Origin: an uncultured Chloroflexia bacterium
GTDB lineage: Bacteria > Chloroflexota > Dehalococcoidia > DSTF01 > JALHUB01
Length of the DNA: 64,000 bases
Reading direction: 5' to 3'
NCBI GenBank assembly: GCA_963842845.1
Contig: CAWJHZ010000005.1
Coordinates: forward strand, 1,308-65,307
Under the pieces are notes generated by a model. That model saw only the letters and a program-made list of their open reading frames with translations. It was not told the origin of the DNA and did no database searches. Shown here in pieces: positions 1 to 45,155 of this stretch. The first letter of the stretch is position 1, and every line of letters starts with the position of its first letter. The position numbers and the translations under genes are program-made.

Positions 1-4
1 CCAG

Positions 5-490: not shown

Positions 491-513
491 CTGAAGGCGA
501 AGGAGTCGCAACC

Positions 514-2070: not shown

Positions 2071-2116
2071 GCGAGGGCAACCGGGGGAGGAGCTTCGCGC
2101 TCCTCCCCCGCTCGTC

Positions 2117-3400
2117 TCATGCCTTCGAGTCCTGCACGCGCGCCAGGCGCGCGAATCGGGCGGGCAGCCACCAGTTGTAGCGGTCGAGGATCGCCATCAG
2201 CGCAGGCACGAGGCAGGCGCGAACGACGGTCGCGTCGACGAGCACGGCGAGCGAGAGTCCGACGCCGAACTCCTGCAGCCCGGCGATCTGGCCGGCGACG
2301 AAGCCGGAGAAGGCGGCGACCATGATCACGGCCGCAGCGGTGACGATCCGCCCCGTCCGCTCGAGCCCGTGCGCGACGGCGCGCGCGTTGTCGTGGACGT
2401 GGTCCCACGACTCGCGCATGCGCGTGACGAGGAAGACCTCGTAGTCCATCGAGAGGCCGAAGAGCATCGCGAACAGGAAGATCGGGATCCAGCCCTCGAT
2501 CTGCGGCACGCGGTAGAGGCCGAGCACGTCGGCGCCGACGCCCCAGCGGAAGATGACGACGAGCAGGCCGTAGACGGCGGCGACCGAGAGCAGGTTGAGC
2601 AGCACCGCCTTGAGCGGGAGCACGAGCGAGCGGAAGGCGCGCAGGAGCACGAGATACGTGAGCACGAGCGCGCCGAGCACGAGCCAGGGCAGCAGGCCGT
2701 ACGAGCGTGAGAGGTAGTCGACGCCCTGCGGCGGCGCGCCGCCGGCGTAGACCCGCACGCCGGCCGGGAAGTGCGCGGCGGGGACGAGCGTGTCGCGCAG
2801 CCGGTGCACGAAGGCCTGCGTTGCCTCGTCGCCGTACTCGTGCCGGCCCGCCACGATCACGCGTGCGTACCGGCCGCTCGGATCGACGTACGGCGCTCCC
2901 GGCCCGGTGGCGGTGACGAGCGCCTCGGGGTCGTGGAAGATCAGGCCGGAGAGCCGTTCGACTGCGGCGTGCACCGGCCCAGTGCGCGCGCGCCCCGGTG
3001 CGCCCGCGTCGACGACGACCTCCGTGGGTGTGAGCGCGCCCGCGCCGGCGTTGGCGCGCAGCAGCGCCAGCCCCTGCGCCGACGCGGTGTGGCCGGGCAG
3101 CGCGGAGATCGAGCCGGGCGTGACCTGGAGGAAGGCCGCGGGCACGGCGGCGGCGACGAGGATGGCGCGTGCCGACGGCCGAGGAAGGCGGCGGGCCGGC
3201 GCATGATCGCGCGGGCGAGCCGCGCCCAGAAGCCGCTGTCGACGTCGATCGTCCCGGGCAGGATGGGCAGGCGGATCGCCGAAGCGGGAGCGCAGCAGCG
3301 CGGCGACGGGCACGCGGCGGGCGCCGCGGCGGCCGAACACCGAGAGCAGCGCCGGCTGGAGCGTCGCGGCGGCGGCGATCGACGCGAGCAATACGTCGAG
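2117..3400 (-). CDS. MMPL-family (RND superfamily) transporter; only the C-terminal half is present, comprising the second periplasmic domain and TM7-12, and the 5' end is cut at the GC/AT junction
   Basis: Typical MMPL C-terminal TM bundle: LPWLVLGALVLTYLVLLRAFRSLVLPLKAVLLNLLSV...FLFAMLFGLSMDYEVFLVTRMRE. There is no ATG; the open frame simply runs into AT-rich DNA at 3400-3433. Confidence 0.7.
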   Translation of the reverse strand, partial: LDVLLASIAAAATLQPALLSVFGRRGARRVPVAALLRSRFGDPPAHPARDDRRRQRLLGAARPRDHAPARRLPRPSARAILVAAAVPAAFLQVTPGSISALPGHTASAQGLALLRANAGAGALTPTEVVVDAGAPGRARTGPVHAAVERLSGLIFHDPEALVTATGPGAPYVDPSGRYARVIVAGRHEYGDEATQAFVHRLRDTLVPAAHFPAGVRVYAGGAPPQGVDYLSRSYGLLPWLVLGALVLTYLVLLRAFRSLVLPLKAVLLNLLSVAAVYGLLVVIFRWGVGADVLGLYRVPQIEGWIPIFLFAMLFGLSMDYEVFLVTRMRESWDHVHDNARAVAHGLERTGRIVTAAAVIMVAAFSGFVAGQIAGLQEFGVGLSLAVLVDATVVRACLVPALMAILDRYNWWLPARFARLARVQDSKA

Positions 3401-3503
3401 TCGAAGGTCAACATAACAATACCCTTCTTGCAACTCAACGGCTATCTCAGGGGTGATGAAGTGTGTTGAGCCATCGATATGAGAGCGGAAGGTGACGCCC
3501 TCA

Positions 3504-3726
<223 letters not shown>

Positions 3727-3867
3727 TTTACTTCACCTTAAAATTAGAATCAACTGCCGAGTTTATAAAATTATTGCTTCCTTTGTTTTTCAGCAGGGCA
3801 AAAACGACATCTAAATAATTTATATGAATTAAAGAAAGCTATGAATTTCCATTTATGCAACCCGAGT

Positions 3868-8360: not shown

Positions 8361-9350
8361 TTATGAAAAATTTGTTATTGTGATGTTTGCTGTTGCTGTG
8401 TTTGCGGTGGTATTCCCGTAGTTAATCAAGGCGTAGAGATATTGGTATGTTGTGGTGGTGCATACGATACTAAGGTGTGATACAAGAACTGTCCGTGCAG
8501 AGTCGCTATAGATATCCAGGGTGCAGGTGGTTCCTACTCTTTTTATAGTGAGGTAATACATTGTTCCTGTTGCTAGAGCAGGTGATACTGCTGATGTTCC
8601 CGCAGAAATGTCTCTCAGTTCAAGTGTATTCGTATTTATGGGAGACCAGCAAACAAATATTCCTGTTGAGGCATTTATCGCAAGCTGTATCGTGGTCTGT
8701 CCGTTAGTCAACCCGACTCCTGTTCTTAACCCTGCTCCTGAGTAGCTATTTAATTCCATGTCAACATTAAAGGTGAAATTACTGAAATGACCTACGCCAA
8801 AATCTTTTCGCACATAGGATGTGCTTGCTCTCATCATGCCTGTGCAGACAATTTGATTTGCGGTAAGCGTGAAAGAGCCGGGTGTTACATTATATGCTGT
8901 ATAGGTTGTGAAATCCTGATAGGTTGTCACATTGATTGTTACTGATACGCTGTCATCAATAATGTTGATTTGTGATAGGAAATTTGCTTGTAATGTAACA
9001 GCGGATGCTGGCATGGTGAATGATAGTGTTGCGTTTGTGTTTGTGTACGTCCCTGTCCAACCTGTGAATGTGTAACCTGTGTTTACGGTAGCGGTTACAG
9101 TGATAGCGGTTCCAGAAGCATAATTCCCATTAGCGGTTCCAGAGATAACGCCTCCTGCTATCGGGCTTTCTGTCGCTGTGAACTGGTAAGTAGCGGGGGG
9201 TGTAGAAAGATATTCATATGCCCCGATATCGTATGCTGTCCCTTGTGGTCTTATGTTCCCATCGTAATCAACGGTAACAATAGATTCTGCCATTCCAGCG
9301 TTTATTGCAGGGGACGTGCTTTGTAAATGAAAATCAGGTGTTGTCTGTAC
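8361..9350 (-). CDS. C-terminal part of a beta-helix adhesin: disaggregatase-like motif plus Listeria-Bacteroides-type GYxFxGW repeat domains
   Basis: PDFHLQSTSPAINAG...DYDGNIRPQGTAYDIGAYEY; TGYTFTGWTG. In sequence terms it is the continuation of ORF 9334-10545 after a frameshift. Confidence 0.55.
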   Translation of the reverse strand, partial: VQTTPDFHLQSTSPAINAGMAESIVTVDYDGNIRPQGTAYDIGAYEYLSTPPATYQFTATESPIAGGVISGTANGNYASGTAITVTATVNTGYTFTGWTGTYTNTNATLSFTMPASAVTLQANFLSQINIIDDSVSVTINVTTYQDFTTYTAYNVTPGSFTLTANQIVCTGMMRASTSYVRKDFGVGHFSNFTFNVDMELNSYSGAGLRTGVGLTNGQTTIQLAINASTGIFVCWSPINTNTLELRDISAGTSAVSPALATGTMYYLTIKRVGTTCTLDIYSDSARTVLVSHLSIVCTTTTYQYLYALINYGNTTANTATANITITNFS

Positions 9351-10545
9351 TGGTAAATAACGGGTTTTTAAGTATAGGATTTGTACCCCATCCAGAGCCA
9401 CTACTCCAACTATTTGTTGGGCTACTGGCACTGAAATTCCAGTAAAGATTGTTGCTAAGTGTGATAACAGAGGAGGGATATGAATAATTATTTATGGCAA
9501 GAACAGTCGCTCCTTGGGTAGTGAAGATATTGTTCTCGATGATAACATTCCCTGTGATTTCAGTGGTAGATAATCTGTTTTCCCACAGGGCAGGATATCC
9601 TATGGTTCTCACCGTGTTATTGAAGATGTAGATATCATGCATGGTTGAATTAGCAGTACCAAGACAAACAAGGCTGATACCATATGAAGATGTATCAATG
9701 ATATTGTTATAGATGTTGATGTTGTAGAGTGTTCCAGTGTTCTCTGACCCGAATGCCATTGAATTATCATCACCGGTTCCCCCTGAGATGTAGTTGTTAT
9801 AGATGTCAATGTCATGTTCATTTCCTCCTTGTGGGTCAAGATAGATTCCTACGTTATTCCATGCTTTTGATGTTGGATTGTTTATATAAATCGTATTATG
9901 ATGGAGAGACCCGGTGTAACAACCTCCTTTTACATCTATCCCTTCCCGTCCATAATATGAGAGACTGTTATCATGGATGTTGAAATTGTTGATGCTTGAA
10001 AGAGAGATTGCTTCTTGTCCTACTTGCTGGCCACCATTTGCTTGTAGATGCACACGATAGACTGTGTTATTATCAAACTCGACAGAGCTTATCGCATAAA
10101 ACTTTATCCCTGAACATTGACATTCATGGATGTAACAATGGTCGATACGGATATGACTATTTTCTGGGTTGCTCGGGTCAGATGAACCAGTATCAGTACC
10201 AATCCAGATTCCATCTAACAGAGAATTTGTTATCTCTAATCCCGTGATTCTGAGATAATGACAACCTGTGAGAATGAAGACCCCTTGACCCCAGCTGTTA
10301 CTTGTGACCCCTGTTCCGTCTACGATGACGGCAGAAGTGTTAGATGGATTCGGCTGCAATGTTATCCATGCGCTGCTCGTACCAGTTTTAGAGATAGTTA
10401 CTTGTTCATTATATATCCCTTGACTGATGTTGATGGTGTCTCCTGCTGAAACCTTACTTAACGCATATTGAATCGCCAGCCACGGGGCACTAGACGACCC
10501 TGAATTTGAGTTACTGCCTGATTTAGAAACATAATAATTCGTCAT
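9334..10545 (-). CDS. right-handed parallel beta-helix (PbH1/pectate-lyase fold) surface protein, N-terminal part; frameshift near 9340-9370
   Basis: Repeated NNTIY.N/IHDN coils such as NIHDNSLSYYG and NIYNNIIDTSSYGI. It ends NPLFTSTDNT, exactly where the conserved ...NPLF-DFHLQ... motif continues in the other frame. A T5 homopolymer lies at 9365-9369. Confidence 0.6.
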   Translation of the reverse strand: MTNYYVSKSGSNSNSGSSSAPWLAIQYALSKVSAGDTINISQGIYNEQVTISKTGTSSAWITLQPNPSNTSAVIVDGTGVTSNSWGQGVFILTGCHYLRITGLEITNSLLDGIWIGTDTGSSDPSNPENSHIRIDHCYIHECQCSGIKFYAISSVEFDNNTVYRVHLQANGGQQVGQEAISLSSINNFNIHDNSLSYYGREGIDVKGGCYTGSLHHNTIYINNPTSKAWNNVGIYLDPQGGNEHDIDIYNNYISGGTGDDNSMAFGSENTGTLYNINIYNNIIDTSSYGISLVCLGTANSTMHDIYIFNNTVRTIGYPALWENRLSTTEITGNVIIENNIFTTQGATVLAINNYSYPSSVITLSNNLYWNFSASSPTNSWSSGSGWGTNPILKNPLFTSTDNT

Positions 10546-14300: not shown

Positions 14301-17143
14301 ATCACCGTCACAGACCCGCTAATGAAGACACCACCGCTAATCACCGTCACCGCACCAGACATCACATGCACTTCACCAGATAAAATGCTGATAAAACCAG
14401 AGGTCTGAAGAACCTGAATCTGACCACTAATCACCTGAACCGCACCCGAGACAAACACACCACCAGAAATGATAGTGACTGCTCCAGACATAATATGGAC
14501 TTCACCCGAAGTAACACCAATCAAACCAGAGAGAACAGCGACATTACCGCTCCCGATAGAAACATTACCAGAAACAATCACACCACCGGAAACAGTAACA
14601 CCACCAGAAGTAATATGAACATCCACAAAACCGCTCATGATATGGACTTCACCAGACTGAACACCCACAAGACCCGAGACAGCAACCGTACCAGACACCT
14701 GAACTGAACCAGAAACCTGCGTCATACCATACAAACCAGAGGCAAGATACACACCAGATTGAACAGTAACACCCACACCAGAATTAATGATGACACCTAC
14801 ACCAGAGGCACTATAAGTTCCTGATGCCGCGCCAGCAACAACAAAAATACCAGAAGCGAGATAAATACCAGATTGTACAACCACACCAGCGCCAGATTGA
14901 ATGACAACACCGACACCTGAGGCAAAATACTGCCCAGATGCAGAATATATCCCTGAAGCGGCGGCAGTAACAACAAATACGCCAGATGCAAGATAAATAC
15001 CTGATTCTAAAATAACACCAATACCCGATTGAACAACTACACCCACACCAGAAGCAGCATATGTTCCAGAGGCCGCAGCAGTCACCATATAAATACCAGA
15101 TGCAAAATATGAGCCGGATGCAATAGAAACAGTCTCACCAGAAACTTTAGCGATAAGCTGACCTGACATCACATAGATGTTACCGCTCAAAACCTGAACA
15201 TTACCTGAGACACCAACAATACCCGAAACCACAACAGAACCAGAAACAGTCACACCACCACTCGTAATATGAACATCCACGAAACCACTCATCACATGAA
15301 TTTCACCAGATTGGATGCCGACAAAACCAGAAGTCTGCAAAACCTGAATCTGACCACTAATCACCTGAACCGCACCCGAGACAAACACACCACCAGAAAT
15401 GATAGTCACAGCACCACTCATGATATGGACTTCACCCGAAGTAACACCAATCAAACCAGAGAGAACAGCGACATTACCGCTCCCGATAGAAACATTACCA
15501 GAAACAATCACACCACCGGAAACAGTAACACCACCAGAAGTAATATGAACATCCACAAAACCAGACATTATATGGATTTCACCAGATTGAAGAGCAACAA
15601 ATCCAGACGTCTGCAAAACCTGAATCTGACCGCTAATCACCGTCACAGACCCAGAGACAAACACACCACCAGAAATAATAGTCACATTACCGCTCATAAT
15701 ATGGATTTCACCAGAAAAAATGCTGACAAAACCAGAAGTCTGAAGAACCTGAATCTGACCACTAATCACCGTCACAGAACCGCTAATGAACACACCACCA
15801 GAAATGATAGTCACATTACCGCTCATCACATGAACCTCACCAGACTGAACACCCACAAGACCCGAGATAGCGACAGTACCAGACACCTGAACAGCACCAG
15901 AAACCCATGCACCAATACTGCCGCTCGTCACCCAAACCTTCCCAGAAGTCGCATCAACAACCCACGTACCAGACTGATAATACGAACCAGACAACAAGAA
16001 AATCGAGCCAGACACACCAACATTACCAGAGACAATCACAGAACCCGAGACAACAGGGACATTCACATACCCTGACATCACATAGATGTTACCGCTCAAA
16101 ACCTGAACATTACCAGAAACACCAACAATACCAGAAACCACAACCGCACCAGAAACCCAAGCACCAACAGAACCACTCATCACATGAACCTCACCAGAAG
16201 CTACACCGATAAGACCAGATTGAATAGCAACAAAACCAGAAGTCTGCAAAACCTGAATCTGACCACTAATCACCGTCACAGAACCCGAGACAAACACACC
16301 ACCAGAAATGATAGTGATTGCTCCAGACATAATATGGACTTCACCAGACTCCAAAGCAACCAAACCAGACTGAATACCAACCAACCCTGAGATAGCGACC
16401 GTACCAGACACCTGAAGAGCACCAGAAACCTGCGTCATACCATACAAACCAGAGGCAAGATACACACCAGATTGAACAGTAACACCCACACCAGAATTAA
16501 TGATGACACCTACACCAGAGGCAGAATATGTTCCTGATGCCGCGCCAGCAACAACAAAAATACCAGAAGCAATATACACACCAGATTCAACAAAAACATG
16601 TTGCCCTGAAATAAGTACGCCAGCACCAGATTGAATAACGACACCAACACCAGAAGCGAAAAACTGACCGGATGCACCATAAGTACCAGAGCCACCACCC
16701 GTGACAACATATAGACCAGAAGCGATATACACACCTGATTGTACGACGACACCTACACCAGAGGCAGAATATGTTCCTGATGCCGCGCCAGCAACAACAA
16801 AGATACCAGATGCAATATACACACCAGATTCAACAAAAAGATGCTGACCAGAAATCTCAACAATGTTCCCTGAAACCGTGACAGGCTGACCGCTGATATT
16901 CGCAGTTGCGGTAAACGTGCCAGCAACAAAAATGCCGGAGGCAATATACACACCTGATTCAACAAAAACATGGTCTCCCGATACAGTAACAGGTTGACCA
17001 GAGATATCTGTTTTTACATCAAAAACACCTTGAACAAATACTCCGCTTTCAACAAAAACGTGGTCTCCTGATACAGTAACAGGTTGACCAGAGACACTTA
17101 CTGTAGTTGTTGTAATCGGAGTCGGTATAATATCCATTCGCAT
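11339..17143 (-). CDS. giant (1934-aa) Ser-Gly/Val repeat beta-protein; putative fibre or surface layer protein
   Basis: Uninterrupted 5.8-kb ORF. TTTAAATA box and AGGTGAAGT RBS upstream. The protein is a long run of xSGxVxVx units with 71-aa and 218-aa higher-order repeats. Confidence 0.8.
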   Translation of the reverse strand: MRMDIIPTPITTTTVSVSGQPVTVSGDHVFVESGVFVQGVFDVKTDISGQPVTVSGDHVFVESGVYIASGIFVAGTFTATANISGQPVTVSGNIVEISGQHLFVESGVYIASGIFVVAGAASGTYSASGVGVVVQSGVYIASGLYVVTGGGSGTYGASGQFFASGVGVVIQSGAGVLISGQHVFVESGVYIASGIFVVAGAASGTYSASGVGVIINSGVGVTVQSGVYLASGLYGMTQVSGALQVSGTVAISGLVGIQSGLVALESGEVHIMSGAITIISGGVFVSGSVTVISGQIQVLQTSGFVAIQSGLIGVASGEVHVMSGSVGAWVSGAVVVSGIVGVSGNVQVLSGNIYVMSGYVNVPVVSGSVIVSGNVGVSGSIFLLSGSYYQSGTWVVDATSGKVWVTSGSIGAWVSGAVQVSGTVAISGLVGVQSGEVHVMSGNVTIISGGVFISGSVTVISGQIQVLQTSGFVSIFSGEIHIMSGNVTIISGGVFVSGSVTVISGQIQVLQTSGFVALQSGEIHIMSGFVDVHITSGGVTVSGGVIVSGNVSIGSGNVAVLSGLIGVTSGEVHIMSGAVTIISGGVFVSGAVQVISGQIQVLQTSGFVGIQSGEIHVMSGFVDVHITSGGVTVSGSVVVSGIVGVSGNVQVLSGNIYVMSGQLIAKVSGETVSIASGSYFASGIYMVTAAASGTYAASGVGVVVQSGIGVILESGIYLASGVFVVTAAASGIYSASGQYFASGVGVVIQSGAGVVVQSGIYLASGIFVVAGAASGTYSASGVGVIINSGVGVTVQSGVYLASGLYGMTQVSGSVQVSGTVAVSGLVGVQSGEVHIMSGFVDVHITSGGVTVSGGVIVSGNVSIGSGNVAVLSGLIGVTSGEVHIMSGAVTIISGGVFVSGAVQVISGQIQVLQTSGFISILSGEVHVMSGAVTVISGGVFISGSVTVISGVVGAQVSGALQVSGTVAISGLVGVQSGLVALESGEVHVMSGAVTIISGGVFVSGSVTVISGLIQVTDPTSGKVWVTSGSVGAWVSGTVAVSGLVGVQSGEVHIMSGFVDVHITSGGVTVSGGVIVSGNVSIGSGNVAVLSGLIGVTSGEVHIMSGAVTIISGGVFVSGAVQVISGQIQVLQTSGFISILSGEVHVMSGAVTVISGGVFISGSVTVISGVVGAQVSGALQVSGTVAISGLVGVQSGLVALESGEVHVMSGAVTIISGGVFVSGSVTVISGLIQVTDPTSGKVWVTSGSVGAWVSGTVAVSGLVGVQSGEVHIMSGFVDVHITSGGVTVSGGVIVSGNVSIGSGNVAVLSGLIGVTSGEVHIMSGAVTIISGGVFVSGAVQVISGQIQVLQTSGFISILSGEVHVMSGAVTVISGGVFISGSVTVISGVVGAQVSGALQVSGTVAISGLVGVQSGLVALESGEVHVMSGAVTIISGGVFVSGSVTVISGVITTTIGSGLFVTIQSGGAVLPIITSGLVGVQSGEIHIMSGVMSVSGNVVSISGNIISLNSGFYMASGIFVVAAAASGTYAASGVGVTLASGLFVTIQSGGAVSVVGAWVSGTVAVSGLVGVQSGLVALESGEVHIMSGAVTIISGGVFVSGSVTVISGLIQFMDPTSGKVWVTSGSVGAWVSGAVQVSGTVAVSGLVGVQSGEVHVMSGAVTIISGGVFVSGSVTVISGLIQFMDPTSGKVWVTSGSVGAWVSGAVQVSGTVAVSGLVGVQSGEVHVMSGAVTIISGGVFVSGSVTVISGLIQFMDPTSGKVWVTSGSVGAWVSGAVQVSGTVAVSGLVGVQSGEVHVMSGAVTIISGGVFVSGSVTVISGSVLVVTPTTILTNAFGSGNIAATYSGIANPKVVGCFSGGVILNSGAILSLLVKAAVTNSGTLYIGGYTANHMPFSGAGFPLDPGEAINLDISQIGYVHACAVISGDLLYYIGTAP
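11700..12420. repeat. 213-bp tandem repeat, about 3.3 near-identical copies, coding
   Basis: Identical reverse-strand pseudo-ORF peptides recur every 213 bp (11759, 11972, 12185). They encode the 71-aa repeat of the giant protein. Confidence 0.75.
12830..14710. repeat. 654-bp tandem repeat, about 2.9 essentially identical copies, coding
   Basis: 13076-13729 matches 13730-14383 base for base. Partial copies flank on both sides. 654 bp is 3 x 218 codons. Confidence 0.8.
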
Positions 17144-17235: not shown

Positions 17236-17400
17236 ATGCCTCAGCGTATGTATCCATCAGATTATTATGGAGAATGTGTAACTGAACAGGTAACAGAGCC
17301 ATCTGTTATCCCTATCTGGGTTCCTGTCCTTATTGGAATTTCAATTATTGCTATAACCTTAGTTGCTCTATATGCCATTTCTAAATCATCTAAATCGTGA
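17236..17400 (+). CDS. small single-pass membrane protein, 54 aa (not in the ORF track)
   Basis: GAGGT RBS; MPQRMYPSDYYGEC...IPIWVPVLIGISIIAITLVALYAI. Its stop overlaps the start of the next gene. Confidence 0.35.
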   Translation: MPQRMYPSDYYGECVTEQVTEPSVIPIWVPVLIGISIIAITLVALYAISKSSKS

Positions 17401-17405
17401 ATACT

Positions 17406-18071
17406 ATGTTGAAAAAAGGCAACATTCCTTGGAATAAAGGATTGAAAATAGATAAAAATAAATATCCTGCTATGGGGTTTCAAAAAGGACATGCTAAATT
17501 ATATAAAATCAATGGACGGCTGGGAAAAAAACCTTGGAACAAAGAATTAACAAAAGAAACTGACGAGCGAGTCAAAAAAAATGGTGAAAATGCAGGAAAA
17601 ACAAAAAAATTACGGTATTCAACTGGGGAAATAACGAATTGGCTCAAAGATAAAAAAATTGATAGGGATAAATATCCTAATTTCGGTTATTTAAAACCAC
17701 ATACTACTGAAATGAAGAAAAAGATGTCTCAATCATTCAAAGGGAGGCATTTTTCCCCAAAAACTGAATTTAAAGAGGGGGATTTAATTGGTGAAAAACA
17801 TCCAAATTGGCGAGGAGGATATTCACCATATGGATTCGAGTTTAATAAAAAATTAAAGGAATTAATCAGAAAGCGAGATAATTATACTTGCCAAGAATGC
17901 AAATTTACGGAAAAACAATTAGGTTATACTCTTTCTGTGCATCATATAGATTTCAATAAAAAAAACAATGAACCTACAAATCTTATTTCTTTATGCAAAT
18001 CTTGTCATACTCAAACGAGTTTTAATAGAGCGGATTGGACTGATTATTTTCAAAGTAAAATGGGGATTTAA
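17406..18071 (+). CDS. HNH homing endonuclease with NUMOD3-like GNIPWNKG repeats
   Basis: Three G(N/K)xPWNKG repeats at the N-terminus; C-terminal CQEC...SVHHIDFNKKNNEPTNLISLCKSCH HNH core. Confidence 0.8.
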   Translation: MLKKGNIPWNKGLKIDKNKYPAMGFQKGHAKLYKINGRLGKKPWNKELTKETDERVKKNGENAGKTKKLRYSTGEITNWLKDKKIDRDKYPNFGYLKPHTTEMKKKMSQSFKGRHFSPKTEFKEGDLIGEKHPNWRGGYSPYGFEFNKKLKELIRKRDNYTCQECKFTEKQLGYTLSVHHIDFNKKNNEPTNLISLCKSCHTQTSFNRADWTDYFQSKMGI

Positions 18072-22433: not shown

Positions 22434-22772
22434 TTATTTTCCTCCTTTTTTACTTAAACCATATTTGTTCTTGAGATATTCGTTTCTTGCACGAAGAAGC
22501 ATCTCCTCCCCTTGATAATTATTCATATGTTTTGTGTTACTTCTAACTGGTTCTGGTGTGTCTGAGTTTAAATCAACCATTAACATAGGATATGTTCTGC
22601 TTTCAGTTTTATTATAATGTATAATGCAATATTTAATCGAGGTAACATCTCCACCAAGGAGAACTGACGGGTTTTTTTCTATGAATTTCGCTACATCTTC
22701 ATCGTAGAAGCCATGCTCAAGCAGAAAAACCTCTTTCTGCAAATCTCGGTACGACATTTTCTTGTAGTTCAT
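22434..22772 (-). CDS. hypothetical protein, 112 aa
   Basis: ORF only. Confidence 0.4.
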   Translation of the reverse strand: MNYKKMSYRDLQKEVFLLEHGFYDEDVAKFIEKNPSVLLGGDVTSIKYCIIHYNKTESRTYPMLMVDLNSDTPEPVRSNTKHMNNYQGEEMLLRARNEYLKNKYGLSKKGGK

Positions 22773-23035
22773 TTCATTCCTCCGTTGTAGATAGGGCAGT
22801 TCTTCTCACCGACACACTGACCCTTAAATATCTCTTCGTAAGTAATTTGTCTACATGTTTCTAATCCCTCCCTTAGATATTTAAATGGGCATGGGTGGTC
22901 TTTTATCCATTGCTCCTTTGATTTCTTGAGTTCCTCTACGAAACAGCTACCACAAACTTCCCCTTTGAATTGGATGTAATGCTCCTCTCCATCAGGTATT
23001 TTTTTCCCACAAATTTTACATATTTTTATCTTCAT
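22769..23035 (-). CDS. Cys-rich zinc-ribbon protein
   Basis: MKIKICKICGKKIPDGEEHYIQFKGEVCGSCF...CP. Immediately preceded by the shared 40-bp leader. Confidence 0.5.
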   Translation of the reverse strand: MKIKICKICGKKIPDGEEHYIQFKGEVCGSCFVEELKKSKEQWIKDHPCPFKYLREGLETCRQITYEEIFKGQCVGEKNCPIYNGGMK

Positions 23036-23085
23036 TGAGTAATCTTTTCTTCCTGTTCCTCGTGCCTCAAGCATTTTTTCATTTT

Positions 23086-23586
23086 TTACATTCTCGAACA
23101 TAGTTTATCTAACTCCTCTTTTGTTTTTGGTGCAAACGCTAATGCTCTGATTGTTTGTTTAAACAACTGAAAAAGATAATAATGCCCGATATCGCCTAAC
23201 TCTTGAGCCTCAACAGGAACCGACATCAAAGGAATATTCAACACACGTAAAACAGTTCCGCTATCAATACCCTTATCAACTACAAACAATGATACCCCCC
23301 ATTCCTTTAATTTCCCTCTTTTTAAATCATGTAACCCTCGTGCGTAATTCCCCCAATCACCATATGTTGGCAGTGGACCAGGATGAAAACAATACCAGGG
23401 TTTATCTTCAAGGGTTTCTTCATCAATTAACCAAGAATATGAATAGCATACTCCGATATCAAACGAGAACTCCTTCGGACCATATTGGCTTGTGCCAACA
23501 ACATACTTTATTTCTGGAGTATATTGATTAAGGAAATTAATTAATTTCACTGCATGTTGCTTGCTTGTCATGATGCCGTATATCAT
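23086..23586 (-). CDS. formyltransferase-family protein, Fmt N-terminal-domain-like; putative sugar N-formyltransferase
   Basis: FHPGPLPTYGDWGN (compare HPSLLPKYRG) and GVSLFVVDKGIDSGTVL (compare tih.vd...DtGpIl). Confidence 0.55.
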   Translation of the reverse strand: MIYGIMTSKQHAVKLINFLNQYTPEIKYVVGTSQYGPKEFSFDIGVCYSYSWLIDEETLEDKPWYCFHPGPLPTYGDWGNYARGLHDLKRGKLKEWGVSLFVVDKGIDSGTVLRVLNIPLMSVPVEAQELGDIGHYYLFQLFKQTIRALAFAPKTKEELDKLCSRM

Positions 23587-24958: not shown

Positions 24959-25777
24959 CTATAATATATATTTATATTTTTCTGTCATCATAAATTCATC
25001 ATGGATTCTAGCTAAATTAAAATCATTTACCCTCCAGATGTTGTCCTTAGACCATTGTTTTTTATCATATATCTGTTTGCATTCCTCTCCATACTCAGGT
25101 GGAGACATGGAGACATGAGGATACCGGTATATCATGAGCTTCTGGTCAACAACCACCGGGGTTTTTGCTACATACAGACGGTCAAGAAGCTCGTTATCCC
25201 ACCATTTACAGCCAACATCATACTCCTCGTTAATACCATTAAATCCATACCAAAAAAACCGTGACATGATGATAAACCCACTGGTTATAATAGGGAGGAT
25301 ACTTCGCAATCCTTCTCTCCCCAATGGATTACATGGTAAAATAAAATACCGCTGAGGAAATTTAATGTAACTCACCCATCGTACATCCCCGTTATTCGCC
25401 TCAAGCTCAACAGGTCGTATAGCAACGGAAATACCGAAGTTATCTATTGTTTCCATGAGATTATAAAAGAAATTTGCGGCAAACTCGTTTTTACCGCCAG
25501 TTATCATACAAAATGGTTCCTCTGCATACGCAAGCCCTGTGTTATACCCAGAGAGTAAATCATACCGCATGGTGTTAAAACGAATCTTGGGTGGGGCGTA
25601 CACGACTTTTTTTAATAATGGCACAAGGTCTCGAAACTGCTCTCCTTTCTGTTGTTCCCAGAGTGAATCAATGATAATGAGTTCGATTTCTTTAAGAATC
25701 TGCTTGTTCTGTGATTCAAGTTTCAATAGACGAAGTGAATCTAAATCACCTTTATTTGAAAAAATCAAAGAAAGCAT
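24959..25777 (-). CDS. GT-A fold glycosyltransferase, beta-1,4-galactosyltransferase-like C-terminal domain
   Basis: LPCNPLGREG...FFWYGFNGINEEYDVGCKWWDNELLDRL resembles the b4GalT motif FGGVSAL...INGF.N.YWGWGGEDDD..NRL. Confidence 0.55.
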   Translation of the reverse strand: MLSLIFSNKGDLDSLRLLKLESQNKQILKEIELIIIDSLWEQQKGEQFRDLVPLLKKVVYAPPKIRFNTMRYDLLSGYNTGLAYAEEPFCMITGGKNEFAANFFYNLMETIDNFGISVAIRPVELEANNGDVRWVSYIKFPQRYFILPCNPLGREGLRSILPIITSGFIIMSRFFWYGFNGINEEYDVGCKWWDNELLDRLYVAKTPVVVDQKLMIYRYPHVSMSPPEYGEECKQIYDKKQWSKDNIWRVNDFNLARIHDEFMMTEKYKYIL

Positions 25778-25783
25778 AAAAAA

Positions 25784-26698
25784 TCACTTGAACCCCCTAA
25801 TTTTCTCTATTATCATCTGTTCATTTATTAATTCTGATTCCCAGATAATTAGAGTTGAAAAACCAAATTTAGCAAACGCTTCTTTTCTACCTTCTTCTGT
25901 TTGATAATATTTCATGTTTTTTCTATTATGCCAATAATCCCCAAAAATTTCAATTATCTGCTTTTTTCCATTGCAGTTAATGAAATCAGGGCACAATCCG
26001 TTTATGATTACTTGCCCATCACCAACATAATCCCATTCATCAGGAAAATAATTCTGCAACAAACAATCAAGATAGAGTTCCAATCCATTTGGTTTTATAG
26101 TAAATCTTCTAAAGAAATTTTTCACATAGTTATCATCTTTGAAATGATTTTTATGTGCTACGCTAATTTTTTCTTTTGTTCTTTCTGATTTCGGTTTGTT
26201 AATATGCGTAAAACTTATTTTTTTCCTTATTTTTTCTGCTTTCTCATTACCAAAAAATTCATCTATAGTTTTTCCTTTAATTGGAGGGATTCTACCTAAA
26301 CTTGCTTTTCTAAGTTTTTCCATTGATTCTTCTGAAAAAATACCATTTTTCCCCTTGTTCCAAGGGATTTTCCCTTTCATTTTTTGTTTCCATTCTTCAG
26401 TATGATGTGTCCCAAATAAGGGGTTATTTATACCTTTTTTACCCCACATTGGATTACTTTTTCCAGAATTAATTCCTTTTTTTGCTTTACAAACTCCACA
26501 CATGCAATCTGATTTATGATTCAATGGTTTTCCGATATGAGCTAATTTTATTTTTTTCTTTGTTTCTTCGTTTAAATGTTTTCCTTTAATCCAGGGAATA
26601 TGTCCTTTTTTAAATAAAGTTGGTTCTAATTTTTTTAATGTTTTTTCAGAATGAGAAATTCCTTTGTTCCAAGGTATGTTACCTTTTTTAAACACCAT
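25784..26698 (-). CDS. homing-endonuclease-like protein: NUMOD3-like repeats plus a C-terminal Vsr/PD-(D/E)XK-like nuclease domain
   Basis: GNIPWNKG, GHIPWIKG, GKIPWNKG repeats. C-terminal GLCPDFINCNGKKQIIEIFGDYWHN...TLIIWESE. Paralogue of the C-terminus of ORF 35533-36426. Confidence 0.7.
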   Translation of the reverse strand: MVFKKGNIPWNKGISHSEKTLKKLEPTLFKKGHIPWIKGKHLNEETKKKIKLAHIGKPLNHKSDCMCGVCKAKKGINSGKSNPMWGKKGINNPLFGTHHTEEWKQKMKGKIPWNKGKNGIFSEESMEKLRKASLGRIPPIKGKTIDEFFGNEKAEKIRKKISFTHINKPKSERTKEKISVAHKNHFKDDNYVKNFFRRFTIKPNGLELYLDCLLQNYFPDEWDYVGDGQVIINGLCPDFINCNGKKQIIEIFGDYWHNRKNMKYYQTEEGRKEAFAKFGFSTLIIWESELINEQMIIEKIRGFK

Positions 26699-30842: not shown

Positions 30843-31659
30843 ATGTTCTCAATCATCATATCGACCATACGTGAGGATGTCATGGCGTTAAGACCTGTTT
30901 TTATGACTTCTTCTAAGGATGCGGAGGTTATTATTATAGATTCTTTTTATAATGAGCATACCAAAAAAATTCTTCAGGAATTGGAACATTGTTATAATAA
31001 AGTTATATATGCGCCCCCTAAGCAGCGTACCTGAAGTCAGGGAGTATCAGTTTCTTTCCTCGCATAATACGGGTCTTGCGTACGCTGAGGGGCCTTGGTG
31101 TCTTGCTGTGAATGATAACATTGAGTTTAAACCGGATTTCTTTTATCGGTTGAAAGAAACCATTGATTCCTATTCTCCTTTGTATCAGCATAGGTTTGTG
31201 GTGCGTCCTGTTGACCTTGAGCAGAATTGCAATGATATACGATGGGAGAGTTATATTTTTTTTAAACAACGGTATTTCCATCTTCCTTGTGGTCCTCTTG
31301 GGAAAGGAGGGATGCGCCAGTTTGTTCCTATTTTGACCTGTGGGGCAGTCGTGGCTCATCTGGAAACATGGTTTTTGCTGAATGGTTTCGATGAGCGATA
31401 TGATATTGGGCTTTCTTGGTTTGATAACGAGTTGTTTGACCGGTTGGTTATCATGCGTTATCAAATTGTTCTTGACCAGCAACTCATGATTTATCACCTT
31501 CCCTATATAGTAAGTTCTATTGGGAAAGAGGAATGTAAAAAACTCTATGATTCTACGATGATGGAGAGGAATAATAGTATCCGTTCCCCTAATTCCTTTG
31601 ATTTACGGGGGATGCATGATGCTCTGATGAAAGAAAAAGAGAAGTATGTGATATGTTGA
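30843..31659 (+). pseudogene. second copy of the b4GalT-like GT-A glycosyltransferase, frameshifted near 31015-31035
   Basis: ORFs 30843-31034 and 30952-31659 align in series with the single paralogue 24959-25777 (...VIYAPPKQR / EYQFLSSHNTGLAYAE...). A C5 homopolymer lies at 31015-31019. Confidence 0.55.
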
Positions 31660-35200: not shown

Positions 35201-35536
35201 TTATCCCCCAACATAGGGTGTTTTTTCTTTCTCACCCTCTATTTTCATGGCTTCAGCGACATGAATCGTATACGTGTTTTTTAATTTCTGTGACCTCATT
35301 AATAGGTTAAGAATAAAATTAACTGATACCATATCATAGACAAGATTTTTCATCGTTGGGTGTCCATTGAAATTCTCTTTACATATCTTTTCAGTTTCGT
35401 CAGCAAGATGACGCATTACTTCTTGAAGAAGTTTATTCATCTTTTCAACATCAAAATCAAGGGTTTTTAAAATACTCTCATCCTGGAGTTGTTTCAGTTT
35501 TTTTTTATCTATCCCTATGTTGATTTCTTTTATCAT
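35201..35536 (-). CDS. hypothetical protein, 111 aa
   Basis: ORF only. Confidence 0.4.
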   Translation of the reverse strand: MIKEINIGIDKKKLKQLQDESILKTLDFDVEKMNKLLQEVMRHLADETEKICKENFNGHPTMKNLVYDMVSVNFILNLLMRSQKLKNTYTIHVAEAMKIEGEKEKTPYVGG

Positions 35537-36426
35537 TTATCCTCCTCGTTGAAATCTTCAATCTTTTTTGCTATTTCTTCATCTGATAATTTTCTCATTT
35601 CATCATCCCACAAAATAAGGGTTTCGTATCCTGCTTTTGAAAGAATTATTTTTCTAATTTTTTCAGTTCTTCTTGGAGGGGGAGAGAATGCTCCATCTTT
35701 ATCATGGAATGCTCTTCCAAAAACCTCTATTATTCTATTATTGGAATTATTTATAAAATCAGGATTTAAACCATTTATCCAAATACTTTTATTTCCAACA
35801 TATTTAAAAGGTAGTTTGTATTTCTTTAGAATGTTCTCGATTCTAATTTCTGGCTTTGTTTTATTGTCTCCATTTACATATGTCCATGGTTTTCGGTCTG
35901 TACAATTTTTTGATGCTTGCTTTCCAATACAGTCTTTTGTCTTGTGTAATCCTAATGAATTTGCTTTTACTTGTATTGAAGCATATCGATGATTTGGTAT
36001 CAACTCTATCAATTCTAATTTAGATGATGCGGCATAATTTTCAATTAGATTTTTCATCTCTTCAGCCATCCATGTTCTTGGATTTTTACTCCATCTAGAA
36101 AAACGTTCTATCTCACGTTGGTTAAATTTTTTTGATTTCTCAAATCCAACTCTTTTCGCTTTATGCTCAATACTTCGCATAGTTCTTCCAGGAAATAGAG
36201 ATATAAGTTCGCTTAGATATTTATCTGGATAATTGTCTCTTAAAATTTTAATTTCTTTTTTTGACCATTTATTCTTTTTTTTAAGACCATACTTATTTAT
36301 TTTTTGTTGTATGCTAGATATCGTTCTACTGGACAGTAGTCTCTGGAGTTCTTGATAGGAAGATGCTGTAGAAAAATATTTTTTTAATGTTTCTACTTCT
36401 TGTTCTTCCCAATGTTTATTTCCCAT
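35533..36426 (-). CDS. homing-endonuclease-like protein: N-terminal Myb/SANT-like helix-turn-helix repeats plus a C-terminal Vsr/PD-(D/E)XK-like nuclease
   Basis: C-terminus GLNPDFINNSNNRIIEVFGRAFHD...TLILWDDE is paralogous to 25784-26698. The N-terminus has two W...W...RT..S...K.K repeats. Confidence 0.6.
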   Translation of the reverse strand: MGNKHWEEQEVETLKKYFSTASSYQELQRLLSSRTISSIQQKINKYGLKKKNKWSKKEIKILRDNYPDKYLSELISLFPGRTMRSIEHKAKRVGFEKSKKFNQREIERFSRWSKNPRTWMAEEMKNLIENYAASSKLELIELIPNHRYASIQVKANSLGLHKTKDCIGKQASKNCTDRKPWTYVNGDNKTKPEIRIENILKKYKLPFKYVGNKSIWINGLNPDFINNSNNRIIEVFGRAFHDKDGAFSPPPRRTEKIRKIILSKAGYETLILWDDEMRKLSDEEIAKKIEDFNEEDK

Positions 36427-39609: not shown

Positions 39610-39834
39610 TTAATCACCTTTTTTAACTGGCATTTTTTTTCTATCTATATTTCTTTTTATTATGAAAACAGGTAATTCTCCTGTTGTTGTAATATATGTA
39701 CCATCATCATTTTCTCTCATGTGACGAACTAATATTTTTGCTGGTTTCGGGAAATCAACGCCATCTACGTTCTGCCAATCTCTATTATGTTCTTTGTCTT
39801 TCTTCACATCTGGTTTAAGTTTATCAGAGTCCAT
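39610..39834 (-). CDS. hypothetical basic protein, 74 aa
   Basis: Tightly packed ORF in the operon. Confidence 0.4.
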   Translation of the reverse strand: MDSDKLKPDVKKDKEHNRDWQNVDGVDFPKPAKILVRHMRENDDGTYITTTGELPVFIIKRNIDRKKMPVKKGD

Positions 39835-40096
39835 ATACTACTTTCTCCTGAATCATATACGCTACTAAATTCAGCCCGTCCGTAGTCTCAAGATAATTCC
39901 CTCGTGGTAAACTTGGATATGGATTATCGAGAATCATATTCCATGCGAGTATTAGACAAAATGTTGCATCATATACTATTCCTTTTGTAAAATTAAGTTC
40001 AGCTCTCCCATATCCTGATGTTGTTCCGAAATAATCATCGTTTATTGGGATGTACGTCGCAGCGACATCATATGACGGACATTTATAGAGTTGCAT
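39824..40096 (-). CDS. hypothetical protein, 90 aa
   Basis: ORF in the operon. Confidence 0.4.
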   Translation of the reverse strand: MQLYKCPSYDVAATYIPINDDYFGTTSGYGRAELNFTKGIVYDATFCLILAWNMILDNPYPSLPRGNYLETTDGLNLVAYMIQEKVVYGL

Positions 40097-40109
40097 AATA
40101 ATTAAATTA

Positions 40110-40376
40110 TTACTTTGTGAAGTGGCGATTATCTTTTGGATATAATGATGGTCTGGTTCCCAATAGAATGGGTCTAAACTTGGTGTTGGGGGAGGGCAAC
40201 AATGCTATTCCAACCATATTCGGCCAGTCATATGAGTAATTTGCGAACAATGCACCAGGGAGGTTAAATACATGTCTTCTTTGATGTGACCGTATCGTTG
40301 TAGCTGTTGCATACTCCACATTTTCAGAATAATCCACTCTACCTGTTCCAACTGATGATACAAGCGTCATACTCAT
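40110..40376 (-). CDS. hypothetical protein, 88 aa
   Basis: ORF in the operon. Confidence 0.4.
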   Translation of the reverse strand: MSMTLVSSVGTGRVDYSENVEYATATTIRSHQRRHVFNLPGALFANYSYDWPNMVGIALLPSPNTKFRPILLGTRPSLYPKDNRHFTK

Positions 40377-40771
40377 CCTATTCTCAGATAATATTCTTTT
40401 TCTGCAGTATACATTCCATTCATGGATACATCAACATCAATAATTTTATCACTATAATTGGAGAGTATTAATCGTATTGTCTTAAAAAATGGGAAACCTG
40501 CTGGGATGTTTTGATAAACGCTTGTATATCCTGCTCCATATGTTACATCAGCAATAGTTCCATCTGTTCCAATCGCTTGTACTTTAAGACCTGTGAGAAC
40601 ATGAGCAAAAGTGCAGAGCCTAAAATCATAGACAAAAACAACACTATCTAATGGTATGTCAACATCAACAGTGATATCAGTTAATGGGGGGAAATCTATA
40701 TATTCAGAAAAATATTTATATAACTGTTGATAACTCCTTATGACGGGTTCTACGATATACTCGATGTTCAT
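40373..40771 (-). CDS. hypothetical protein, about 132 aa, preceded by the shared 40-bp leader
   Basis: ATG at 40769-40771 directly follows a leader copy identical to the one upstream of 22769-23035. Confidence 0.45.
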   Translation of the reverse strand: MNIEYIVEPVIRSYQQLYKYFSEYIDFPPLTDITVDVDIPLDSVVFVYDFRLCTFAHVLTGLKVQAIGTDGTIADVTYGAGYTSVYQNIPAGFPFFKTIRLILSNYSDKIIDVDVSMNGMYTAEKEYYLRIG

Positions 40772-40812
40772 TGAATAATCTTTTCTTCCTGTTCCTCGTG
40801 CCTCAACCGTCG

Positions 40813-41154
40813 TCATTTGTTTTCCCCTTCACCTTTCCCATCTATATGCATCGTAACAGTAATAGTATGTGCATTTGTATCATCGTGATTAAGTAATACC
40901 ACTTGAATCATCTCATTAATATCAACATCTATGTTCATTGCAAATGTGCCTGTGAAATCATCTAATGCTAAAGGGTCTGGGGGGAAAGGAAAAATCTGTT
41001 GAGTTCCTTTTTGAATAACAGCATCAACTAAACCGTTACATCCTGCGGGGTAATGAAAAAGAAGCCGTGTTATTTTCCCCGTTATTGGAGAGCATTTTGT
41101 CTGTGTTGTACTCGTTAAGAGCGGGACTGTTTGTCTATATACCATTTCTTCCAT
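40813..41154 (-). CDS. hypothetical protein, 113 aa
   Basis: GAGGT RBS; ORF. Confidence 0.45.
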   Translation of the reverse strand: MEEMVYRQTVPLLTSTTQTKCSPITGKITRLLFHYPAGCNGLVDAVIQKGTQQIFPFPPDPLALDDFTGTFAMNIDVDINEMIQVVLLNHDDTNAHTITVTMHIDGKGEGENK

Positions 41155-45076: not shown

Positions 45077-45155
45077 TTTTATTTCACCTTTGGTTTTACT
45101 TCACCTTATACTAAGAATAAATTAAACAGTATTTAAAACTTTCTTGTCATTCAAT

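What the first reader, a model, noticed from the sequence alone, without database searches (positions are those of the whole stretch)
23031..23070. Identical 40-bp leader upstream of two unrelated genes 17.7 kb apart
TTGAGGCACGAGGAACAGGAAGAAAAGATTA(C/T)TCAATG occurs immediately 5' of the zinc-ribbon gene (start 23035). The same sequence sits 5' of an operon gene (start 40771), at 40767-40806 with one mismatch. It reads through as VEARGTGRKDYSM in longer ORF predictions, but the conserved ATG follows it in both cases. Such a purine-rich 40-mer could be a shared promoter or translational leader, a recombination scar, or the boundaries of an internally mobile segment. The 17.7 kb between the copies contains the tRNA and most of the glycan island.
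Basis: seen in the sequence. Interest (0 to 1): 0.55.

Follow-up and report, generated by a model that had tools for sequence, protein, structure and literature searches.

The report
Capsid-like gene start copied onto zinc-ribbon gene
The repeated 40-base sequence is real, but it is the protein-coding start of a conserved virus-like structural gene, and a short piece of it was recently copied in frame onto the front of an unrelated zinc-ribbon gene; this is a small, fairly ordinary case of gene-piece shuffling in an otherwise unknown virus-like element.

Summary
Two minus-strand copies (23031-23070 and 40767-40806) match 39/40, extensible to 41/43, with none expected by chance.

The "shared leader" reading fails for copy B. 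There the sequence is codons 4-16 of gene B (40373..40816). It encodes the first block of a very conserved N-terminal arm, V-x-x-x-G-[TVI]-G-R-x-D-Y-S. The ATG after it is not conserved in homologs. B's real start (40816) overlaps the upstream stop as ATGA and has a good Shine-Dalgarno.

At copy A the sequence is an add-on. The closest Zn-ribbon homolog starts at the ATG that ends the repeat and has nothing similar upstream.

Copy A matches this genome's own B at 37/38, against 33/38 or less for any relative. So it is a recent intragenomic partial duplicate, joined at an ATGAA.AT microhomology. It leaves ORF A open in frame from ATG 23074 or 23101 (M-L-E-A-R-G-T-G-R-K-D-Y-S-...).

I found no promoter, terminator, RNA structure, Rfam family or recombinase. 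Half of the 17.7-kb interval is syntenic with relatives, so it is not one mobile unit.

Best reading: a recombination by-product that made a chimeric 5' end. A functional, portable arm tag remains possible. A close relative (L046) carries the same arm on a different protein body.

The parts
40764..40806 (-). Copy B (source copy): codons 4-16 (plus 5 nt) of gene B, encoding (V)EARGTGRKDYSM(N), block 1 of the conserved N-terminal arm
   Evidence: for the repeat. for peptide conservation. One search shows synonymous differences inside it in relatives L004 and L005, so it behaves as ordinary coding DNA.
23028..23070 (-). Copy A (derived copy): 43-nt ectopic duplicate of the B arm segment. It sits between the stop of gene X (23088-23086) and the body of the Zn-ribbon gene, and its last codon ATG (23035-23033) coincides with the Zn-ribbon family's usual start
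   Evidence: 37/38 identical to this genome's own B, against 33/38 or less for any relative. Homolog P0009 starts at this ATG and L006 has no such sequence upstream. 3' junction microhomology is ATGAA(G/C)AT.
40373..40816 (-). Gene B: 147-aa protein with a low-confidence N-terminal arm (residues 1-29) and an eight-strand jelly-roll-like beta-sandwich (residues ~30-140)
   Evidence: Homologs. AF2 mean pLDDT 73, core blocks 77-93, arm below 50. Foldseek matches STMV coat protein, IBDV VP2 and virion/uncharacterised phage proteins. Start has an ATGA overlap and an AGGTGA-type SD.
22769..23101 (-). ORF A: Zn-ribbon protein (CxxC...CxxC plus conserved KDHPCPFK...NCPIYNGGMK). In-frame ATGs at 23101 (110 aa), 23074 (101 aa, begins MLEARGTGRKDYS) and 23035 (88 aa, the homolog-type start)
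   Evidence: Pfam gives only a weak DUF2175 hit, E=0.005. AF2 model is poor, with residues 1-23 disordered.
23086..23586 (-). Gene X, upstream of ORF A: 166 aa, weakly formyltransferase-like. Its stop TAA (23088-23086) lies 13 nt after ATG 23101 and 11 nt before ATG 23074
   Evidence: PHROG 9240, E=0.0017.
40813..41154 (-). 113-aa gene upstream of B. Its stop TGA overlaps B's ATG (ATGA), and this coupled arrangement is conserved in relatives
39824..40376 (-). Second arm-bearing paralog B' (begins MSMTLVSSVGTGRVDYSENVEY). It is split by a frameshift near 40190 into ORFs 40110..40376 and 39824..40096

Best explanation
The 38-43-nt repeat is protein-coding DNA. Its native home is gene B (40373..40816, minus strand). 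There it encodes residues 4-16, (V)EARGTGRKDYSM, the first and most invariant block of an N-terminal arm. That arm heads a family of small jelly-roll-like proteins found as an adjacent paralog pair (B and B') in a group of uncultivated virus-like elements. Copy A is a recent duplicate of that segment, taken from this genome's own B or a near-identical co-infecting genome. It was placed 17.7 kb away, directly onto the native start codon of an unrelated Zn-ribbon gene in the lineage-specific part of the glycan gene island. The 3' joint lies in a short microhomology (ATGAA.AT) shared by B codons 16-18 and Zn-ribbon codons 1-3, which is the signature of illegitimate or microhomology-mediated recombination or template switching. 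Because the joint is at an in-frame ATG, the borrowed codons are automatically in frame. Two upstream in-frame ATGs (23074, 23101) mean that ORF A can be translated as a chimera carrying the first arm block. Shown: the repeat, its coding nature in B, its absence from the closest Zn-ribbon homolog, its recency, and the absence of regulatory or mobile-element features. Inferred: the direction B to A, the recombination mechanism, and that the event is a neutral or nearly neutral by-product and not a dedicated DNA or RNA signal.
For: Repeat significance. Coding in B: the arm is invariant at G, G, R, D, Y, S across 7 close and 105 retrieved family proteins and always lies 5-18 residues from the N-terminus. 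The start ATG 40816 with ATGA overlap is conserved in L004 and L005. No extra nucleotide constraint: L004, L005 and L046 carry synonymous changes inside the 38-mer. Add-on at A: P0009 (62-66% identical) starts at the aligned Met, and L006 has only 3 nt between the upstream gene and that ATG. P0010 has a different N-terminus. Recency and source: A vs own B is 37/38; the best relatives score 33 (L046), 30 (L005) and 29 (L004) of 38; the window's own B' arm is far more diverged. Uniqueness: in about 320 kb of 50 related loci the arm occurs only in the adjacent B/B' pair, and the window's copy A is the only extra and only truncated one. Recombination-prone context: the 19.5-32 kb segment holding A has no counterpart in relatives and contains inverted paralogs at 43% identity and several homing-endonuclease genes. 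No signal features: no promoter or terminator between X and A, no RNA structure (z = +0.64, +0.31, -1.0), and Rfam finds only the tRNA.
Against: A purely accidental event does not predict several things. The copied piece coincides almost exactly with the invariant arm block. An in-frame ATG sits immediately before it (ATG-CTT-GAG gives M-L-E-A-R-G-T-G-R), at an offset (5) typical of the family. The first codon changed only from V to L, a substitution seen within the family. A close relative (L046) carries the same arm on a different body. These points hint at selection for arm-tagged proteins. There is no population or read data to date or polarise the event, and no near-identical strain exists in the searched collections. 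The 5' joint shows no clear microhomology.
Confidence: 0.6

Rival explanations
1. Functional portable tag. The first arm block (GTGRKDYS) is a transferable N-terminal signal, for example for docking onto a capsid or shell partner, incorporation into particles, or recognition by a processing or modifying enzyme. Under this reading the Zn-ribbon protein was recruited by acquiring it, and the copy is kept by selection.
For: The arm is more conserved than the jelly-roll body across 100+ proteins and heads at least three body classes. L046 has the identical first 15 residues on a 248-aa protein whose only other homolog (P0126) lacks the GxGR block. ORF A from ATG 23074 or 23101 places the motif at offset 5 or 14, both typical of the family. 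The better translation contexts (an SD-like GAGGAG before 23101, and proximity to X's stop for coupling) favour the extended forms over ATG 23035. The Zn-ribbon family tolerates N-terminal extensions (P0010).
Against: Only block 1 (12 residues) was copied. Block 2 (N-[VI]-E-x-S-V-E-P-V-I-R-S-Y-Q), equally conserved in the family, is missing. The event is so recent (1 synonymous difference in 38 nt) that selection has left no readable trace. No other example of a truncated arm or an arm on a non-jelly-roll protein was seen in about 320 kb of relatives. The arm's function is unknown, and the 'structural' role of B rests only on a fold prediction and gene context.
Confidence: 0.2
2. Shared regulatory leader. 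The purine-rich 40-mer would be a common promoter, 5'-UTR or ribosome-loading element placed in front of the real ATG of both genes.
For: It is purine-rich with SD-like GAGGAA/AGGAAG, and an ATG follows in both copies. For gene A the following ATG is the homolog-type start.
Against: In B the sequence is downstream of the conserved, translationally coupled start and encodes the family's invariant peptide, and the following Met is not conserved. The SD-like purines lie 13-20 nt from the ATG, whereas this genome's genes use AGGTGA/GGAGG at about 5-10 nt. Relatives vary at synonymous sites inside it. No sigma-70-like promoter, no structure and no Rfam family were found.
Confidence: 0.04
3. Recombination sites bounding a mobile or excisable 17.7-kb segment. 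The repeats would be att-like direct repeats, or substrates for programmed deletion of the glycan island.
For: The two copies are direct repeats flanking a block with a tRNA-Asn, sugar-modifying genes and homing endonucleases. A 40-nt direct repeat could support rare homologous deletion, which would fuse B's start to the Zn-ribbon body.
Against: No integrase or recombinase was found among the interval's ORFs. The 40.8-32.3 kb half of the interval, including B itself, is syntenic with relatives L001, L038 and L004, so the interval was not inserted as a unit. The repeat is not at the tRNA. One copy is native coding sequence of an evidently important gene that excision would destroy.
Confidence: 0.06
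4. Assembly or amplification artefact. Copy A would have been created by a chimeric read or a mis-join in a metagenomic assembly.
For: The contig shows signs of chimerism elsewhere: the first ~3.7 kb is 65-69% GC and encodes an MMPL transporter, while the rest is about 38% GC.
Against: Copy A has unique sequence on both sides within 43 nt, which would need two chimeric joints. It differs from copy B at 2 of 43 positions. It sits exactly at an ATG in frame. The B-side arrangement is confirmed by synteny.
Confidence: 0.04

Closest known systems
Modular (mosaic) evolution of phage structural genes: conserved N-terminal virion-anchoring part with exchangeable distal part, as in tail-fibre genes of T-even and lambdoid phages (from my own knowledge)
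   Same: A conserved N-terminal segment is retained while different bodies are joined behind it. The conserved coding DNA serves as the recombination boundary. L046 and P0126 show such an exchange at B's position.
   Different: Here the conserved part is only a 12-27-residue arm on small jelly-roll-like proteins. The window's event placed just half of it on a non-structural-looking Zn-ribbon gene 17.7 kb away, inside a glycan island.
Short terminal targeting peptides shared by unrelated proteins: phage T4 capsid targeting sequence of internal proteins, and encapsulin cargo-loading peptides (from my own knowledge)
   Same: A roughly 10-residue terminal peptide shared by otherwise unrelated proteins of one genome, lying in a disordered terminus.
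   Different: There is no evidence here for packaging, protease processing or a shell partner. Only one extra recipient is known. The copy is recent and may be neutral. The full family arm is longer than the copied piece.
Mobile regulatory cassettes (promoter-early stem-loops, PeSLs) that flank and shuffle genes in T4-type phages (from my own knowledge)
   Same: Short repeated sequences at the 5' ends of genes in hyperplastic regions of a viral genome that can mediate recombination.
   Different: PeSLs are non-coding promoter plus stem-loop units present in many copies. This repeat is coding in its source, unstructured, without a promoter match, and present only twice.
Chimeric genes formed by partial duplication and illegitimate, microhomology-mediated recombination
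   Same: Sharp boundaries, a few bases of junction microhomology (ATGAA.AT), an in-frame fusion to a pre-existing ORF, and near-identity to the parental copy.
   Different: Nothing essential. This is the category I file it under.

Membership tests
Shared non-coding leader / promoter / RBS element | Lies upstream of the true start codon in every gene that carries it | tested here: not met
   In B it is codons 4-16, downstream of the conserved ATGA-coupled start at 40816. At A it is upstream only of the homolog-type start.
Shared non-coding leader / promoter / RBS element | Nucleotide conservation beyond what the encoded peptide requires, or a promoter or structure signature | tested here: not met
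   Synonymous changes occur in L004, L005 and L046. There is no promoter or terminator, no RNA structure (z about 0) and no Rfam hit. SD-like purines lie 13-20 nt from the ATG against about 5-10 nt genome-wide.
att-type direct repeats of an integrated mobile element | Integrase or recombinase encoded within or next to the bounded segment | tested here: not met
   Pfam and PHROGs scans of the interval's ORFs find methyltransferases, glycosyltransferases, sugar-nucleotide enzymes and homing endonucleases, but no recombinase. ORFs under 100 aa were not all scanned.
att-type direct repeats of an integrated mobile element | The bounded segment is present or absent as a unit among relatives | tested here: not met
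   Genes from 40.8 to 32.3 kb are syntenic with L001, L038 and L004, whereas 32-19.5 kb has no counterpart.
Arm-bearing jelly-roll protein family (B/B'), with ORF A as a candidate member | Full N-terminal arm: block 1 G-x-G-R-x-D-Y-S plus block 2 [VI]-E-x-S-V-E-P-[VI]-I-R-S-[YWH]-Q | tested here: not met
   ORF A has block 1 only. After DYS it continues MKIKICKICGK.
Arm-bearing jelly-roll protein family (B/B'), with ORF A as a candidate member | Beta-sandwich body homologous to B | tested here: not met
   ORF A's body is a Cys-rich Zn-ribbon homologous to P0009 and P0010. It has no similarity to B beyond the repeat.
Terminal targeting peptides (T4 CTS, encapsulin cargo-loading peptide) | Same short terminal peptide on unrelated proteins of one genome | tested here: met
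   B, B' (diverged) and ORF A in the window. L046 has the arm on a different body.
Terminal targeting peptides (T4 CTS, encapsulin cargo-loading peptide) | The peptide directs the protein into a particle or shell, or is processed there | not testable with these tools
   This needs particle proteomics or heterologous tagging experiments.
Two-single-jelly-roll major capsid protein viruses (Sphaerolipoviridae / Simuloviridae type), as a possible home for B and B' | Adjacent genes for two jelly-roll capsid proteins next to a packaging ATPase | tested here: inconclusive
   B and B' are adjacent in all relatives, and B is predicted as a jelly-roll-like sandwich. No ATPase or any Pfam/PHROG hallmark was found nearby. 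B' was not modelled. The window holds at least 60 kb of ~38%-GC sequence, which from my own knowledge is much larger than genomes of these virus families.

The most novel reading that the evidence does not exclude
The invariant arm block (G-T-G-R-K-D-Y-S) of this uncharacterised virus-like lineage is a portable N-terminal address tag that docks proteins onto, or into, the particle, or marks them for a modifying enzyme. Under this reading, the window catches the tag in the act of recruiting a new cargo, a Zn-ribbon protein from the glycan island. This would be analogous to the T4 capsid targeting sequence or encapsulin cargo-loading peptides, but in a new virus group and on jelly-roll proteins.
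Probability: 0.15. Interest if true: 0.6.

Novelty: new member of a known kind. Interest (0 to 1): 0.3.

Why it matters
The main value is corrective. Two secondary points follow. First, it brings out an unannotated protein family (113 cluster representatives, no Pfam or PHROG model) with an unusually conserved N-terminal arm on a jelly-roll-like body, present as an adjacent gene pair in elements from many metagenomes. Second, together with L046 it shows that the arm-coding DNA is a boundary at which new protein bodies get attached in this lineage. If the arm proves to be an assembly or targeting signal, it would give a handle on particle assembly in an unknown virus group and a candidate tag for loading cargo. 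If not, this is an ordinary example of how chimeric gene starts arise.

Tried and rejected
- Identifying the genome. Megablast of 24 kb against GenBank phages found no match. The exact 36-mer in IMG/VR found none. Protein-guided scans of IMG/VR for B and A relatives found none. A scan of GTDB species genomes for B found none. So I could not name a host or taxon or find near-identical strains. Cluster look-ups gave no names, and the window's own B protein is not on record in the contig index.
- Regulatory or RNA-element readings. The promoter/terminator scan, RNA folding of both contexts and of the repeat alone, and Rfam were all negative.
- Mobile-island reading. I searched the interval's ORFs for recombinases and compared synteny. 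Rejected.
- A second source for copy A's flanks. blastn-short of the flanks against the window gave only chance-level 10-14-mers.
- Concerted evolution between B and B' arms as a general process. Within-genome identity (mean 24.6/38) is only slightly above between-genome identity (21.5/38), with one high case (L038, 34/38). This is not strong enough to claim routine gene conversion.
- Structure of ORF A. AF2 with 3 sequences gave pLDDT 59, too poor for a fold search. The PDB sequence search gave only marginal RING/zinc-finger-type hits with E >= 0.015.
- Viral hallmark genes. Pfam and PHROGs on about 50 ORFs gave no capsid, portal, terminase or polymerase family. 'Virus-like' therefore remains an inference.
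- Literature. One search did not surface a description of this arm motif or group, and I did not pursue it further.

Full report
**1. The observation**

The 38-mer TTGAGGCACGAGGAACAGGAAGAAAAGATTA(C/T)TCAATG is present exactly twice, both times on the minus strand, at 23033-23070 and 40769-40806. Even with 3 mismatches allowed there are no further copies, and 100 dinucleotide-preserving shuffles gave none. Similarity ends abruptly on both sides. It is the only long-range near-exact repeat in the window apart from the internal repeats of a giant gene at 11.3-17.1 kb.

**2. What the sequence is at copy B**

Copy B lies inside ORF 40373..40816 (147 aa, MTTVEARGTGRKDYSMNIEY...).
- Its ATG at 40816 overlaps the stop of the upstream 113-aa gene (ATGA) and follows an AGGTGA/GGGG Shine-Dalgarno like those of neighbouring genes.
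- The same 4-nt overlap is seen in relatives L004 and L005.
- A word-based search found 6 homologs (38-67% identical). A full profile search found 113 cluster representatives, mostly about 150 aa.
- In these proteins the peptide encoded by the repeat is the most conserved part. G8, G10, R11, K12, D13, Y14 and S15 are invariant among the close homologs.
- Over 105 retrieved proteins the arm reads V-x-x-x-G-[TVI]-G-R-x-D-Y-S-x-x-[VI]-E-x-S-V-E-P-[VI]-I-R-S-[YWH]-Q and always starts 5-18 residues from the N-terminus.
- Relatives carry synonymous differences within the 38-mer, e.g. GGAACTGGTAGA and GGAACAGGGCGG. So there is no nucleotide-level constraint beyond coding.

Hence at B the repeat is codons 4-16 of a translated, conserved arm and not a leader.

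**3. What gene B is**

AlphaFold2 on the 7-sequence alignment gives an eight-strand beta-sandwich for residues ~30-140 (10-residue blocks at pLDDT 77-93) and a low-confidence arm for residues 1-29. Foldseek matches jelly-roll-type proteins: STMV coat protein, IBDV VP2, nucleoplasmin cores, Ena fibres and several virion or uncharacterised phage proteins.

Every related locus carries two adjacent arm-bearing genes, a ~150-aa B and a ~160-190-aa B'. Neither these nor the surrounding cluster (243-, 158-, 229-, 147- and 113-aa genes) hit Pfam or PHROGs.

The element has compact, co-oriented genes, an intein, HNH, NUMOD3 and LAGLIDADG endonucleases, a tRNA-Asn and many glycan-modifying genes. I call it virus-like by inference. 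No hallmark family was detected, and no relatives exist in GenBank phages, IMG/VR or GTDB genomes.

**4. What the sequence is at copy A**

Copy A lies between the stop of gene X (TAA at 23088-23086) and the Cys-rich body of ORF 22769..23101. The closest homolog of that ORF, P0009 (93 aa, 62-66% identical), begins MTEKICAICGK, aligned with the Met encoded by the ATG at 23035-23033, which is the last codon of the repeat. In its contig (L006) that ATG follows the upstream gene by 3 nt, with nothing resembling the repeat. A more distant homolog, P0010, has a different 48-residue N-terminus. The repeat is therefore an add-on at A.

It is in frame, and two further in-frame ATGs lie upstream:
- 23074 gives M-L-E-A-R-G-T-G-R-K-D-Y-S-M-K-I-K-I-C.
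- 23101 is the 110-aa form that gene callers chose (P0008).

None of the three starts has a good Shine-Dalgarno. GAGGAG lies 11 nt before 23101. ATG 23074 is 11 nt past X's stop. The purines of the repeat lie 13-20 nt before 23035, whereas the genome's norm is about 5-10 nt. Translation of the extended forms is thus at least as plausible as the short form, but it is unproven.

**5. Origin**

Copy A matches this genome's own B at 37/38, and the single difference (TAC/TAT) is synonymous. The best arms from relatives score 33/38 (L046), 30/38 (L005) and 29/38 (L004), and the window's own B' arm is far more diverged. So A is a recent copy of B's segment and not an old paralog.

At the 3' joint, B (ATG AAC ATC) and the Zn-ribbon gene (ATG AAG ATA) share ATGAA.AT. 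This fits microhomology-mediated illegitimate recombination or template switching. The 5' joint shows no clear microhomology, and the flanks of A have no other source in the window.

The neighbourhood is recombination-prone. The 19.5-32 kb segment has no counterpart in about 320 kb of related loci. It contains an inverted pair of paralogs at 43% identity and free-standing homing-endonuclease genes.

**6. Rejected readings**

*Regulatory leader.* This is contradicted by section 2, by SD geometry, and by negative promoter, terminator, RNA-fold and Rfam results.

*Mobile-segment boundaries.* No recombinase lies in the interval. The interval's 40.8-32.3 kb half (B, B', a 255-aa gene, two GT4 glycosyltransferases, a triple methyltransferase) is syntenic with L001, L038 and L004. 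One 'boundary' is the native start of a conserved gene.

*Artefact.* This is unlikely. It would need two chimeric joints 43 nt apart, the copies differ at 2 positions, and the B side is confirmed by synteny. However, the contig does have a suspicious GC-rich end, so read-level confirmation is desirable.

**7. Is the borrowed peptide functional?**

Points in favour:
- The copied piece coincides with the invariant block 1.
- The preceding codon changed only from V to L, which is within family variation.
- An ATG sits immediately before it, at a family-typical offset.
- The arm is portable in this lineage. In L046, a close relative whose 243-aa protein is 78% identical to the window's, the arm MTTVEARGTGRKDYSQNVEYISEP heads a 248-aa protein. 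The only other homolog of that body, P0126 (50% identical), begins MVHTAPDYTMKYK, lacks the GxGR block, and starts right after the upstream gene's stop. It sits where B normally sits, though that rests on a weak match (pairwise E = 3e-4) between its upstream gene and the 113-aa gene.

Points against:
- Block 2 of the arm is missing in ORF A.
- No other truncated or ectopic arm exists in the relatives.
- The event is too young for selection to be readable.

I therefore favour a neutral or nearly neutral recombination by-product (0.6) over a functional tag (0.2). The other readings share the remainder.

**8. Novelty and score**

Chimeric 5' ends made by partial duplication, and modular exchange behind conserved N-terminal parts of viral structural proteins, are known kinds. 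This is a new member. The unannotated arm-bearing family and the possibility of a portable arm tag give it some residual interest, so I score overall interest at 0.3.

Noticed in passing
window 1-3700 (junction about 3650-3750): The first ~3.7 kb is 65-69% GC and encodes an MMPL-family transporter (2117..3433 minus, PF03176, E=6e-33). The rest of the window is about 38% GC and virus-like. This is either a chimeric assembly or an element abutting foreign high-GC bacterial DNA. A 15-nt exact match (TTTTACTTCACCTTA) links 3726-3740 to 45094-45108.
   Followed up: partly
window 39824-40376 (minus), frameshift near 40190: The second arm-bearing paralog B' is split into two ORFs (88 aa and 90 aa). 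L004's intact 183-aa B' aligns with residues 1-62 in one frame (40370-40188) and residues 61-183 in another (40192-39827). This could be a pseudogene, a sequencing error or a programmed frameshift.
   Followed up: partly
L046 4219-4986 (Ga0315268_10025128); L051 343-1068: In a close relative the B-type arm (first 15 residues identical to the window's B, 33/38 nt) heads a 248-aa protein with an unrelated body. That body's only other homolog (P0126, 50% identity) lacks the GxGR block. This is evidence that bodies are exchanged behind the arm.
   Followed up: yes
window 11339-17143 (minus): A giant 1934-aa ORF built of highly similar tandem repeats (periods 213 and 654 nt, some copies 99-100% identical) with strong GC/AT skew. 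Its neighbours carry beta-helix (9334..10545, PF13229) and Flg_new_2 (8361..9431) domains. It is likely a fibre or adhesin-like surface protein.
   Followed up: no
window 51669-53474 (minus): A 601-aa ORF carries an intein with a LAGLIDADG endonuclease (PF14890, PF14528). The exteins are short and unidentified.
   Followed up: no
window 17397-18071 (+), 25784-26698 (-), 35533-36426 (-), 37571-38368 (-): There are three free-standing homing-endonuclease genes (HNH; NUMOD3; LAGLIDADG) plus a fourth candidate (35533..36426, only a weak GcrA-like Pfam hit). The latter two are inserted between glycosyltransferase genes that are adjacent in relatives L001 and L038.
   Followed up: partly
window 24959-25777 (-) and 30952-31659 (+): Inverted paralogs (43% identity over 227 aa, no Pfam family) lie within the glycan island. 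The 28.3-32.0 kb block is transcribed on the opposite strand, suggesting an inversion or duplication.
   Followed up: partly
Protein family of window 40373-40816 (P0001-P0122): This unannotated family has 113 cluster representatives with an exceptionally conserved N-terminal arm and no Pfam or PHROG model. One member (P0062, 1583 aa) contains 14 tandem copies of the beta-sandwich body, and P0041 (321 aa) appears to be a tandem B-B' fusion.
   Followed up: partly
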